59,077 bases of DNA from IMG/VR virus record IMGVR_UViG_2690316267_000014. One strand, 5' to 3'. This stretch comes from a virus (Duplodnaviria > Heunggongvirae > Uroviricota > Caudoviricetes). Below are positions 3,001 to 6,000 of the stretch, piece after piece. Made by a program: the position numbers. Positions within the stretch are counted from its first letter, which is position 1, and every line of letters begins with the position of its first letter.

Positions 3001-6000
3001 AAGGTTTGTTTTCATGACCGCTTTATAGCTGTAACCAGTACCGGAGAACAGCCAGATGCTATGGGATTCAGAAATTCAGCATCATGCCTGATAGAGGCGA
3101 AGTGTTCTCGTGCTGACTTGTTAGCAGATAGAAAAAAGCGTTTTCGTAAAAATCCGTCTCTTGGAATGGGCGACTGGCGATTCTTTATTAGTGAGCCGGG
3201 AATTATTTCAATTGAGGATTTACCACCTGGCTGGGGGTTACTTCACGTTGTTAACGGAAGAGTACGGAAAGTACATGGGTGGCCCAAGGGTAATTGCTGT
3301 TGGGGTAATCCTGACGATAAGCCATTTACTGGAAATAAGCAGGTTGAATGCGATTACATGTTATCTGCATTAAGGCGCATGGAGTTGAGAGGGCACCTTA
3401 ATGAAATATATGACGGTGTAATTGTTAATAAGAAAGAAGGAAACGCGGCATGATCACTATTACCAAAGAGCGACTACTGACAATCAAGCAGTGGCGCGAA
3501 ACATACGGACCTGGTAGCAACGTTGTACTGCCAGCAGAAGAAGCGGAAGAACTGGCACGAATTGCTCTGGCAGCGCTGGAAGCCGAGCCGATAGGTTTCC
3601 GTTGCAGGCGCAATGATAACCTTGGTGATTGGAGTTACGTATATCATCGAGAGCCAGATGATTTTGAGCGCAAACATTTAGTGATAGAGGGCATTTACGC
3701 CGCCCCTCCAGCACCAGTAGTACCGGAAGAAAAACCAATGCCTAATCCTCTTAGCATGTACGCGGTTGATGCTGTTGCCGCTATTGCAGAGGTGAGAGGC
3801 TGGAACGCCTGCCGTGCCGCTATGCTTCAGTCCGGAAACTTTCGGGAAAACAAGAATTCGTCAACCAATAATTTTCGGGAAATCGCGGAAACGTCAACCA
3901 ACTATCCGGTAATTCCTAGTGAGGTGTTGTCCGCAATCCTGAAGGTTGCCAAGATTCGTGCCGATTTCGATGATTTTGACGGTGACAGGCGAGGTATCGG
4001 TGATTGTCTGGATGAGGCTGAGCAAGAGCTTATCGTTACCATTAACAAATATGCCAGTCAGTTGGCAGCAGAACCGATAGCGACTAATGACGTTCGAGAG
4101 CAAACAGCCGTTCCGCCAGTTCCGGTAACTCCGGATGGTTGGATAAGCTGTAGTGATCGAATGCCAGAAATGGGAGAGCGACAATACTATGTGTTAGCAG
4201 CTGACTTTAAAAACAACTACCCACCAAGCATCCCCAACACTCAGGTCGGCGTATATGGCGACTGGTTTAATGATGGCAATCCCACTTGGGATGACGGTGA
4301 TGGCGAAGACCTGCATCTCAAAGAAGTAACCCACTGGATGCCGCTACCAGAACCGCCGAAGGAGGTACGCCAATGACCTAGCCTGAAGCATTTGCAATTG
4401 TAGTGGCTGCCATTTCGATCGCACTGATTGTTTTTGCGATTTGCCGCTGGGGGTAAAATAGTTCACCTGCATGGAGATTTGATGCCGGGGAATTGTGGGG
4501 GAGCATTCAAACCTCTCCCCTTCCCGGTTAAAGACTCCATTGCTTTGCGGTCAGAGAGATACATCAGCTTCATCAGCTTAATGAAACGCATAGATCCGCC
4601 ATGCTTTTTCAGCAAATACGCTGCCATTTGCGCAACTTTTTCTTCATTAAACATAAATCGGCTCTCTGTCTCACATGAAATACTCTTTCTGACTATATGT
4701 TAATAGCTCCGGTTATTACAGGTTAATGTGTGTTTATTTCTTAATCAGCCCCGCACTTCCGTACGGGGCCATTTCTGTTAATCCACTCCCACTTTTTTGT
4801 TGTACTCGCGGTTAAACCGATCCACGGCAACCTTCATATCCCGCTCTACCGATTTCACCATCGCCGCCTGCTGCGCCAGACTGAGAGAACTGTCGGCATA
4901 AATGGCATCGCGCTGTTTGCGCAAATCCTTCAGTCTCTTCCGGGTATCCTGCATAAGCCCGTTCATCAACAATTTTCCGTTGTTCTCGTCAATGAACGCC
5001 GTTCTTTCTGCACCGGTCAGACTCTTCAGCTCTGCGTGATACTGCGCAACCTCTGTCATCCGGTCGTACATCTTCTGCTGGTCTGCATACGGCATCACCT
5101 CACCCGAAATTTTCCCCAGGAAGGGCACCTGCTGTTCCGGTATATCAATACCATTCAGCGATTTCACCGCCGCATCCGTGGTTTTGGAAATGAAGCGCCC
5201 TGTCCCTCCGGAGATATAGTCAATCCAGAATTTCAGCGATTCCGGTGTGATATCCACCGCGCCGGGACGATACTGGCTGCCACCTGAGAACGCATTCAGC
5301 CAGGATGCAAACGCCTTGTACGCTTCTGGCGTTGAACGTCTTCCCAGCTGGCTGTCAGGTTTTGGTGTACCAAACGGCATGTTCTCCTGGTAAATCTGCG
5401 CCCCCATGAAGTTTTCATTCATGGCAAGGTTCGCAAACGGACGCAGAATGGTCGGTGCTGCGTTTTTCAGCAATGCCCCCGACAACGTTTCCGACGTCTC
5501 GCTGCCGATCGGGCTGAATGCCCCCAGGATACCGCCGACAACATTACCGGCAGCACGTGAAGCAGTCAGGTCGCCCGCTGCCACACCTTCAGCTGTATGA
5601 CCAAGCAGGAAGAACACGTTGTACCCGTAAGGCAGAGGAATACTCCAGTACTCACCGGCCTTGCCCCCGAACATCGATTTCATGATGACGAGGTTACGCT
5701 CTTTCACATGAGACGGTACTTTGTCGTACCAGTTAACCCCGTCATCATCCTCACCCGCCACACTGCGGTTAAGCGAGCCAAGCAGATAACCCGCTCCCAC
5801 AGCTGCAAGCACGATTTTCTGCGGTACATTGAGATTCTTCCAGCGAAGGCGCTCCAGTAACGGCCCGTCGCCATTAAGATGTCCGAGCGTTCTCACCAGG
5901 TTTGCGGTCCCCTGAATGCTGGCGTTGGCAAACATGTACAGCGAGTTCATCAGCATCCCCTGCTCACCACGACGGTTAAAGTTCACCGTCATGTTTTTGG

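What the first reader, a model, noticed from the sequence alone, without database searches (positions are those of the whole stretch)
4373..4456. Conserved 27-aa peptide coupled to DUF551 genes, carrying an amber codon in one copy
Downstream of two of the three DUF551 paralogs is a homologous small ORF in ATGA overlap with the DUF551 stop. The copy at 44699-44782 is intact (MNWPEAFAITGVAMAITFLVYVICRWG). The copy at 4373-4456 has TAG at codon 3 where the intact copy has TGG, and is otherwise open. Conservation of a tiny coupled ORF across paralogs argues that it is a real gene; the amber variant is either decay or dependent on suppression.
Basis: seen in the sequence. Interest (0 to 1): 0.45.

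Follow-up and report, generated by a model that had tools for sequence, protein, structure and literature searches.

The report
Unannotated phage membrane microprotein; one dead copy
The tiny ORF is a real, widespread but almost never annotated 27-amino-acid membrane protein gene of E. coli lambdoid prophages, and the copy with the amber codon is an ordinary nonsense-mutated pseudogene, not a case of suppression.

Summary
Window 4373-4456 (+) reads MT*PEAFAIVVAAISIALIVFAICRWG and 44699-44782 (-) reads MNWPEAFAITGVAMAITFLVYVICRWG. Both overlap a DUF551 stop as ATGA, with AGGAGGT 6 nt upstream.

The ORF is a genuine small-gene family. Among 132 instances (45 distinct DNA alleles), the start codon, the stop at codon 28 (TAA or TGA) and an open, hydrophobic core are kept almost without exception. 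Gly11 uses all four Gly codons. Length variants are in frame. A GGAGG plus ATGA overlap is kept behind unrelated upstream genes.

The family occurs in at least 718 of 5426 complete E. coli genomes, with up to 5 copies each. It is absent from Pfam, NCBIfam and PHROGs. RefSeq almost never annotates it, and I found no paper on it. Only about half of the copies follow DUF551.

The TAG is confined to one allele lineage: 34 of 34 sampled instances carry it and no TGG form was found. That lineage has lost the conserved Gly11. Its only derived changes are a frameshift and two missense mutations. It lies at a deletion scar and coexists with an intact paralog. The window has no tRNA. Verdict: decay. The protein's function is unknown; a single-pass inner-membrane modulator is my inference.

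The parts
3450..4376 (+). DUF551-domain gene (308 aa). Its TGA stop overlaps the start of peptide copy 1.
   Evidence: Pfam PF04448, E=1.2e-19, residues 230-304; ORF list.
4360..4366 (+). Shine-Dalgarno AGGAGGT for copy 1, 6 nt before the ATG. It lies inside the last codons of the DUF551 gene.
   Evidence: Sequence. A GGAGG is kept at this distance in all upstream contexts.
4373..4456 (+). Copy 1 of the 27-codon microprotein gene, inactivated by W3amber (TAG at 4379-4381) and also carrying G11V. It is a pseudogene.
4457..4475 (+). About 15 nt resembling the 5' end of the DUF4222 gene that follows intact alleles elsewhere, with the ATG destroyed. This is a deletion scar (inference).
   Evidence: Alignment; downstream-context counts.
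4463..4654 (-). Remnant of a Panacea-domain (antitoxin-like) gene abutting the dead copy. In some genomes a G-run length change extends it antisense through the peptide.
   Evidence: RefSeq annotation of identical DNA; no Pfam hit for the 63-aa fragment.
44779..45423 (-). DUF551-domain gene. Its TGA overlaps the start of peptide copy 2.
   Evidence: Pfam PF04448, E=1.1e-20.
44789..44795 (-). Shine-Dalgarno AGGAGGT for copy 2, 6 nt before the ATG.
   Evidence: Sequence.
44699..44782 (-). Copy 2, intact: MNWPEAFAITGVAMAITFLVYVICRWG, a predicted single-pass membrane microprotein.
   Evidence: The same protein, with one synonymous change, is in the O104:H4 prophage.
44559..44663 (-). A second, unrelated 34-aa hydrophobic small ORF with its own SD, lying between copy 2 and hok/sok.
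   Evidence: annotated as WP_001278450.1 in RefSeq.
44158..44482 (-). hok/sok type I toxin-antitoxin locus. This is the commonest kind of downstream neighbour of the peptide gene.
   Evidence: Rfam sok, 116.9 bits; ORF MKQQKAMLVALIV...; context counts.
57660..58469 (+). Third DUF551 gene (dATP/dGTP pyrophosphohydrolase plus DUF551), with no peptide ORF after it.

Best explanation
The 84-nt ORF is a bona fide, mostly unannotated gene. It encodes a 27-residue single-helix membrane microprotein. A short N-terminal WPEA and a C-terminal CRWG flank a hydrophobic core of about 18 residues that contains a conserved Gly and Ala-rich small-residue stretch. The gene is carried as a small mosaic module in early and accessory regions of lambdoid and Stx-type prophages of Escherichia, Shigella and Salmonella. 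It also occurs in P1-like phage-plasmids and in at least one virulent phage. It is translated by ribosomes that terminate on the upstream gene (ATGA overlap) and/or bind a strong GGAGG lying in the last codons of that gene. SHOWN: the family exists; its frame, start, stop and RBS are conserved; copy 2 is intact. SHOWN: copy 1 carries a TGG-to-TAG nonsense mutation at codon 3 that is fixed in one allele lineage, and that lineage shows further degenerative changes. INFERRED: copy 1 is a dead gene, tolerated because the same prophage keeps an intact paralog. INFERRED: the protein inserts into the inner membrane N-out/C-in (positive-inside rule, Arg25). INFERRED: it acts by helix-helix packing with itself or with a host or phage membrane protein during early lytic development. 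The target and the phenotype are unknown.
For: Real gene:
- A pattern that fixed only parts of codons 3-6 and 24-27 recovered 132 instances and 45 distinct DNA alleles. ATG (once GTG) sits at codon 1 in 44 of 45 alleles, and a stop (TAA 39, TGA 3 among the 42 intact alleles) follows codon 27 in all 45.
- No allele has a stop in the unconstrained core (0 of 59), whereas 57 of 59 do in the +1 frame.
- Gly11 is encoded by GGA, GGC, GGG and GGT. Ala13, Ala15 and Ala17 each use 3-4 Ala codons. Core replacements are hydrophobic for hydrophobic.
- Mean Kyte-Doolittle hydropathy is 0.9-1.4.
- Length variants of 24, 29, 31 and 35 aa are all in frame.
- GGAGG 6-9 nt upstream and the ATGA overlap are kept behind unrelated upstream genes.
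- An unbiased scan of DUF551 3' ends found the same family.
- The family is present in at least 718 of 5426 complete E. coli genomes, up to 5 copies per genome, with 45 places on plasmids.
- Gene callers have occasionally called it, as a 27-aa 'putative prophage protein' (E. coli 042) or as 45-aa extended hypotheticals.

Copy 1 is dead:
- This allele carries TAG in 34 of 34 instances across E. coli genomes, IMG/VR and metagenomes, and TGG in none.
- TAG is found in no other allele.
- The nearest intact allele (89% nt identity) has TGG and Gly11, whereas the TAG allele has Val11.
- The only derived variants within the lineage are a 1-nt insertion frameshift, S15L and A22V. None is synonymous.
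- There is no tRNA gene in the window.
- TAG ends 4 of 73 ORFs in the window.
- An intact paralog lies 40 kb away in the same prophage, both in the window and in O104:H4 2011C-3493.
Against: - There is no direct evidence of translation. No Ribo-seq or proteomic hit was found in the supplements searched.
- dN/dS in the hydrophobic core is only about 0.49, and one antisense frame scores similarly (0.39). That antisense frame is also open in all alleles, so substitution ratios alone do not discriminate.
- The first 7 codons or so are conserved even at synonymous sites. This could reflect a nucleotide-level role, such as the initiation region or a recombination boundary.
- The three secondary lesions in the TAG lineage are few events.
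- Low-level natural UAG readthrough cannot be excluded computationally.
- The proposed membrane-modulator function rests only on composition and context.
Confidence: 0.8

Rival explanations
1. The amber allele is functional. It would be expressed at a low or conditional level by UAG readthrough or suppression, or by reinitiation at the in-frame GTG at codon 11, for example to keep a toxic membrane peptide at a safe dose.
For: Apart from the TAG, the ORF is open in the majority form of the allele (23 of the 34 sampled instances), and the allele is present in about 45 complete genomes. It has persisted through recombination that placed it behind three different upstream genes. Its strong SD and ATGA overlap are retained.
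Against: The TAG is confined to one allele lineage among 45 alleles. That lineage also lost the otherwise near-invariant Gly11. Its internal variants are a frameshift and two missense changes, with no synonymous change. There is no tRNA in the window, and TAG is a normal stop there. No SD precedes GTG11, and a 17-aa product would lack half of the helix. An intact paralog is present in the same prophage.
Confidence: 0.04
2. The ORF is not translated. On this view the conserved block is a nucleotide-level element, such as a mosaic 'boundary' recombination sequence, the 3' UTR or terminator region of the upstream gene, or the template of an antisense RNA or antisense ORF. The open frame would be a by-product.
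For: The 5' 30 nt are nearly identical between alleles even at synonymous sites. The block sits exactly at module junctions with variable upstream and downstream neighbours. One antisense frame is open in all alleles and has a similar pseudo-dN/dS. RefSeq annotates an antisense 91-aa ORF over it in O104:H4.
Against: Start and stop positions are conserved across 45 alleles, including a TAA/TGA interchange. Gly11 shows four-codon synonymous variation. Core replacements preserve hydrophobicity, and indels are in frame. A GGAGG at correct spacing is retained behind unrelated genes. The antisense frame has no conserved start or stop, and its flanks differ between contexts. No Rfam family and no above-chance promoter or terminator lies on it.
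Confidence: 0.08
3. The peptide is a type-I-toxin-like membrane-depolarising toxin (Hok/TisB/Ibs-like) rather than a benign modulator.
For: It is 27 aa and essentially one hydrophobic helix. Its most frequent neighbour is a hok/sok locus (56 of 132 copies, counting those with the 34-aa ORF in between). It lies among other toxin-antitoxin genes, with a Fic/Doc gene in the window and Doc and RelE/ParE annotated in the matching O104:H4 prophage.
Against: There is no dedicated antisense RNA or folded 5' UTR. Instead a strong exposed SD and translational coupling link it to an upstream protein gene. There is no sequence similarity to any toxin family in Pfam, NCBIfam or PHROGs. Up to five copies per genome are tolerated.
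Confidence: 0.12

Closest known systems
Small single-pass inner-membrane proteins of E. coli (50 aa or fewer, e.g. the KdpF, MgtS, AcrZ, YohP class)
   Same: Length of about 27 aa. One hydrophobic helix bracketed by Trp residues, with a basic residue at one end. Missed by annotation pipelines. A small-residue (Gly/Ala) stretch suited to helix packing. These points rest; the comparison to the named proteins is from general knowledge.
   Different: No sequence homology: the only hits are sub-threshold matches to KdpF, the OadG-related family and the DUF883_C glycine zipper. It is phage-borne, multi-copy and mosaic. Partner and function are unknown.
Type I toxins (Hok/Gef, TisB, Ibs, Ldr)
   Same: A tiny hydrophobic peptide that often lies next to hok/sok.
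   Different: No antisense RNA and no translational occlusion. It has a strong SD and is coupled to the upstream ORF. There is no homology.
Translationally coupled (ATGA) distal genes in lambdoid early operons and phage 'morons'
   Same: ATGA stop-start overlap, with the SD inside the upstream coding sequence. It behaves as an independently shuffled module with variable neighbours.
   Different: It has no promoter or terminator of its own in most contexts, so it is not a classical moron. In some alleles a terminator follows directly.
Nonsense-mutated prophage accessory genes (ordinary pseudogenes)
   Same: A derived premature stop, secondary frameshift and missense lesions, an adjacent deletion scar and a redundant intact paralog.
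   Different: Nothing distinguishes it from this class.

Membership tests
Protein-coding small gene (conserved sORF) | Start and stop codons conserved in position across diverged homologues, with no internal stops | tested here: met
   44 of 45 alleles have ATG or GTG at codon 1 and all 45 have a stop after codon 27 (TAA 39, TGA 3 among the 42 intact alleles). No allele has a stop in the core (0 of 59), against 57 of 59 in the +1 frame.
Protein-coding small gene (conserved sORF) | Codon-level substitution pattern: synonymous variation at conserved residues, conservative replacements, in-frame indels | tested here: met
   Gly11 uses 4 codons and Ala13/15/17 use 3-4 codons each. Replacements are hydrophobic for hydrophobic. 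The 24, 29, 31 and 35 aa variants are in frame. Core dN/dS of 0.49 is not decisive on its own.
Protein-coding small gene (conserved sORF) | Ribosome-binding site at functional spacing | tested here: met
   GGAGG lies 6-9 nt upstream in every upstream context, including unrelated genes.
Protein-coding small gene (conserved sORF) | Direct evidence of translation (Ribo-seq, MS or a tagged product) | not testable with these tools
   No occurrence of the peptide strings in the supplements of two sORF surveys or in the searchable full text.
Single-pass membrane microprotein | One hydrophobic segment of about 18-22 residues with interfacial aromatic or charged flanks | tested here: met
   W3 and W26 are invariant, E/D5 and R25 flank a hydrophobic core, and mean hydropathy is 0.9-1.4. 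Membrane insertion itself was not tested.
Programmed stop-codon readthrough or suppressor-dependent gene | In-frame stop conserved across diverged homologues | tested here: not met
   TAG occurs only in one allele lineage. The other 42 intact alleles have TGG.
Programmed stop-codon readthrough or suppressor-dependent gene | Purifying selection continues downstream of the stop | tested here: not met
   The derived variants in the lineage are a 1-nt insertion frameshift, S15L and A22V, with none synonymous. The conserved Gly11 is replaced by Val. The number of events is small.
Programmed stop-codon readthrough or suppressor-dependent gene | A suppressor tRNA, or recoding of TAG in the element | tested here: not met
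   ARAGORN finds no tRNA in the window. TAG terminates 4 of 73 ORFs. Host tRNAs lie outside the window and were not tested.
Type I toxin-antitoxin toxin | Cognate antisense RNA and a translationally occluded mRNA | tested here: not met
   No Rfam family overlaps the ORF; the sok hit belongs to the neighbouring hok. The SD is strong and the ORF is coupled to the upstream gene.
Type I toxin-antitoxin toxin | Toxicity on expression | not testable with these tools
   Needs an experiment.
Any curated protein family (Pfam, NCBIfam, PHROGs) | A score above the family threshold | tested here: not met
   Best hits are far below the cut-offs: PTR2 16 bits against 27, OadG_rel_small 14.8 against 25, and phrog_38566 at E=0.0065.
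DUF551-linked gene pair | Obligate co-occurrence with DUF551 | tested here: not met
   68 of 132 copies follow a DUF551 C-terminus, 31 follow an unrelated gene and the rest follow others. About 10 of roughly 105 distinct DUF551 3' contexts carry the peptide.

The most novel reading that the evidence does not exclude
The 27-aa peptide is a functionally important phage microprotein that has been overlooked because annotation pipelines skip it. It is present in at least 13% of complete E. coli genomes, including the O104:H4 outbreak strain and the Stx phages 933W, VT1-Sakai and VT2-Sakai. It might, for example, bind a host inner-membrane protein and so influence lysis-lysogeny, superinfection exclusion or membrane energetics. 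The amber allele could then be a naturally attenuated or readthrough-dosed version.
Probability: 0.15. Interest if true: 0.6.

Novelty: new member of a known kind. Interest (0 to 1): 0.3.

Why it matters
A conserved gene is missing from nearly all annotations of lambdoid and Stx prophages, including 933W, the Sakai phages and the O104:H4 prophage. It belongs in any functional study of the poorly understood exo-xis and nin accessory regions. It is also a clean test case for small-ORF annotation, because it overlaps the upstream stop, has a strong SD and has a fixed 27-codon length. The amber copy carries no special biology. It mainly warns that an in-frame stop in one paralog should be checked against population data before recoding is invoked.

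Tried and rejected
I used the 45-aa database version instead.
- Pfam, NCBIfam and PHROGs gave only sub-threshold transmembrane-composition hits.
- The scan of species-representative genomes found real matches only in E. coli and Shigella flexneri. The other 13 hits were chance matches in GC-rich genomes.
- Searching for a repaired TGG version of the copy 1 allele found none in 5426 E. coli genomes, IMG/VR or metagenomes.
- Literature: a DUF551 search, an exo-xis region search, peptide-string searches and the supplements of two sORF surveys gave nothing on this peptide.
- Promoter and terminator scans around both copies gave nothing above shuffled expectation.
- dN/dS by frame did not discriminate the sense frame from one antisense frame, so I relied on boundary conservation, codon usage at conserved residues and indel phase.
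- Lipoprotein reading rejected on direct reading of the sequence: the residues before Cys24 (Y-S/V-I-C) do not fit a lipobox, and only 3 residues follow the Cys.
- Structure prediction and the representative-protein search need at least 30 aa and were not applicable.
- One coordinate in alignment A2 (L123) was wrong, and I ignored that row.
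Full report
OBSERVATION. The two small ORFs exist as described. Copy 1, window 4373-4456 (+), reads ATG ACC TAG CCT GAA GCA TTT ... TGC CGC TGG GGG TAA, i.e. MT*PEAFAIVVAAISIALIVFAICRWG*. Copy 2, 44699-44782 on the minus strand, reads MNWPEAFAITGVAMAITFLVYVICRWG*. Each ATG overlaps the TGA of the preceding gene (ATGA), and AGGAGGT lies 6 nt upstream. Pfam confirms three DUF551 genes: 3450-4376 (+), 44779-45423 (-) and 57660-58469 (+). The last is fused to a dATP/dGTP pyrophosphohydrolase domain and has no such ORF after it. An 18-mer from the N-terminal part occurs exactly twice in the window, against 0.11 expected.

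IS IT A GENE? I made two collection scans. The first was unbiased and took any DUF551 C-terminus (WMPLPEPP) in IMG/VR. It showed that the downstream gene varies widely. About 10 of roughly 105 distinct contexts carried this peptide (eight intact, one the TAG allele, one a deleted remnant). About 40 contexts had an ATGA-type overlap with whatever gene followed.

So coupling is a general property of DUF551 3' ends, whose PPxEV codons spell GGAGG. It is not a special bond with this peptide.

The second scan fixed only parts of codons 3-6 and 24-27 and left the start, the stop and 17 core codons free. It recovered 132 instances and 45 distinct DNA alleles. Of these alleles, 44 have ATG (once GTG) at codon 1. 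The exception has a 1-nt deletion at the start. All 45 have a stop directly after codon 27; among the 42 intact alleles it is TAA in 39 and TGA in 3.

No allele has a stop in the free core (0 of 59 extended sequences), whereas 57 of 59 do in the +1 frame. Gly11 is conserved in 41 of 42 intact alleles and is written with all four Gly codons. Ala13, Ala15 and Ala17 each use 3-4 Ala codons. Replacements in the core are hydrophobic for hydrophobic.

Length variants are in phase. A 24-aa form occurs in the P1-like Salmonella phage SJ46. Forms of 29, 31 and 35 aa arise from 6-nt repeat expansions in the helix.

A GGAGG 6-9 nt upstream and the ATGA overlap persist when the upstream gene is unrelated to DUF551. 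Examples are genes ending ..LISVEDILR*, 933W L0139, and genes in Av-05 and SJ46.

NG86 dN/dS in the core is 0.49. One antisense frame gives 0.39 and is also open, so substitution ratios alone are not decisive. However, the antisense frame has no conserved boundaries. Taken together, the evidence for a translated 27-codon gene is strong, although no direct translation data were found.

DISTRIBUTION AND STATE OF KNOWLEDGE. blastn with copy 2 finds the family in at least 718 of 5426 complete E. coli genomes. The median is 2 copies and the maximum is 5, with 45 places on plasmids. tblastn finds it in 92 phage records, including 933W, VT1-Sakai, VT2-Sakai, BP-4795, Min27 and the virulent Vequintavirinae phage Av-05.

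Among species-representative genomes, only E. coli and Shigella flexneri matched the strict pattern. Protein databases add E. albertii, S. sonnei and Salmonella.

In the RefSeq and GenBank records I inspected the ORF is unannotated. In the O104:H4 prophage the 34-aa ORF immediately after it is annotated while this one is not. Sporadic gene calls exist: a 27-aa 'putative prophage protein' in E. coli 042, entries named 'bacteriophage protein', N-terminally over-extended 45-aa hypotheticals, and fragments mislabelled 'DUF551, partial'. No Pfam, NCBIfam or PHROG family matches, and no paper mentions it.

CONTEXT. Upstream of the 132 copies lie a DUF551 C-terminus (68), an unrelated gene ending ..LISVEDILR* (31), an internally deleted DUF551 (11) and others (22). 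Downstream lie a DUF4222 gene (46), a hok/sok locus (39), a 34-aa small ORF followed by hok/sok (17, which is the window's copy 2 arrangement), terminator-like hairpins or other sequence (20), and a Panacea-gene remnant (10, which is the TAG allele only). The ORF therefore behaves as an independent mosaic module that carries its own RBS-bearing leader.

THE AMBER CODON. The copy 1 allele (..AIVVAAISIALIVFAICRWG) was found in about 45 complete E. coli genomes. It was also found in 16 IMG/VR contigs and 12 metagenome contigs. Of the 34 instances I could read, all have TAG and none has TGG. No other allele has TAG, so the stop is derived and is fixed in a single lineage.

The closest intact allele is MTWPDAFAIVGVAMSIALIVFAICRWG, at 89% nt identity. 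It has TGG and Gly11, whereas the TAG allele has Val11, which removes the best-conserved core residue.

Within the lineage the only derived variants are a 1-nt insertion that frameshifts the C-terminus (4 instances), S15L (4 instances) and A22V (3 instances). None is synonymous.

The allele always abuts a truncated Panacea-domain gene on the other strand. About 15 nt after it look like the destroyed start of the DUF4222 gene that follows intact alleles, which suggests a deletion scar.

The same prophage keeps an intact copy 40 kb away in its nin region, both in the window and in O104:H4 2011C-3493. There the intact copy differs from the window's by one synonymous change. The window encodes no tRNA and uses TAG as an ordinary stop for 4 of 73 ORFs. 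Reinitiation at the in-frame GTG11 has no SD and would give half a helix.

All of this fits a tolerated nonsense pseudogene, and nothing points to suppression. The persistence of the allele behind three different upstream genes shows only that the dead copy hitch-hikes through recombination in the conserved DUF551 end.

MECHANISM (inference). The product is essentially one transmembrane helix. W3 and W26 would sit at the two interfaces, E/D5 on one side and R25 on the other. By the positive-inside rule this predicts N-out/C-in. A conserved G11-x-A13-x-A15-x-A17 small-residue stretch is the obvious packing surface.

The gene lies in pL-distal (exo-xis-like) and nin-region operons, so it would be made early after induction or infection, in step with the upstream gene. 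I consider a membrane-protein modulator or exclusion-type accessory function the most likely. A Hok-like toxin role is less likely because there is no antisense RNA and the SD is strong and exposed. A purely nucleotide-level role is unlikely given the codon evidence.

VERDICT. The 'real gene' reading is supported and extended to a widespread, uncharacterised microprotein family that is almost always unannotated. The DUF551 linkage is positional, not specific. The amber copy is ordinary decay. Interest is modest: the finding is useful for annotation and for work on small phage proteins, and it is not mechanistically surprising.

Noticed in passing
window 44559-44663 (-): A second, unrelated small hydrophobic ORF (34 aa, MSDDISLAMEGALAVIAVVGVYCLVVFLMDRLGN) with a strong SD lies between peptide copy 2 and hok/sok. 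RefSeq annotates it as WP_001278450.1. It has only weak homologues in the phage collection (44-50% identity, E about 0.1). The inserted segment is flanked by similar GGTAAAAACG(G/T)TT strings.
   Followed up: partly
window 44158-44482 (-): A complete hok/sok type I toxin-antitoxin locus (Rfam sok 116.9 bits; Mok/Hok ORF). A Fic/Doc gene lies just beyond it at 43265-43759 (-).
   Followed up: partly
window 4463-4654 (-): A truncated Panacea-domain (antitoxin-like) gene remnant. A G-run length polymorphism (GGGGG or GGGG near 4495) turns the 63-aa ORF into a 91-aa ORF in O104:H4. RefSeq annotates that ORF, and it runs antisense through the dead peptide copy, so it is probably an annotation artefact.
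   Followed up: partly
homologues P0056, P0060, P0062, P0066, P0068, P0071; L278 1501-1575: The peptide helix varies in length through in-frame 6-nt repeat expansions (..AMAVAL.. to ..AMAVAVAL.., ..AMAMAMAMAMAVAL..), giving 29, 31 and 35 aa forms. A 24-aa form occurs in the P1-like Salmonella phage SJ46.
   Followed up: no
loci L008-L127 (DUF551 3' ends): The DUF551 C-terminus WMPLPEPPxE.. encodes a GGAGG that serves as the SD for whatever gene follows. About 40 of roughly 105 distinct contexts have an ATGA-type stop-start overlap. Several other unrelated small hydrophobic ORFs (40-66 aa) also follow DUF551.
   Followed up: partly
window 4457-4475 (+) and 44680-44698 (-): Both peptide copies are followed by about 15 nt resembling the start of the DUF4222 gene (ATGTTCGC..TGAT) with the ATG destroyed. 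This suggests an ancestral peptide-then-DUF4222 arrangement that was later deleted.
   Followed up: partly
L006 (Escherichia phage Av-05, 74413-74493) and L279 ('Actinobacillus phage' vB_Apl-pPE4): The peptide gene is also present in a virulent 121-kb Vequintavirinae phage. It is also in a record labelled as an Actinobacillus phage, whose locus is the peptide followed by a Hok/Gef-family gene, the arrangement typical of E. coli lambdoid phages. The host assignment of that record looks doubtful.
   Followed up: no
window 39035-39240, 42245-42329, 42356-42430, 53971-54029, 814-899: Rfam gathering-level hits: STnc100, C4 antisense RNA, isrK, the lambda cIII thermoregulator and sRNA-Xcc1.
   Followed up: no
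window 4778-13132 (-): A giant 2784-aa ORF (annotated as LPD38 or LPD5 domain protein in RefSeq) converges on the dead peptide copy. Gene order in the window matches a 933W-like short-tailed, non-Stx prophage that is inserted next to ynfF in O104:H4 2011C-3493.
   Followed up: partly
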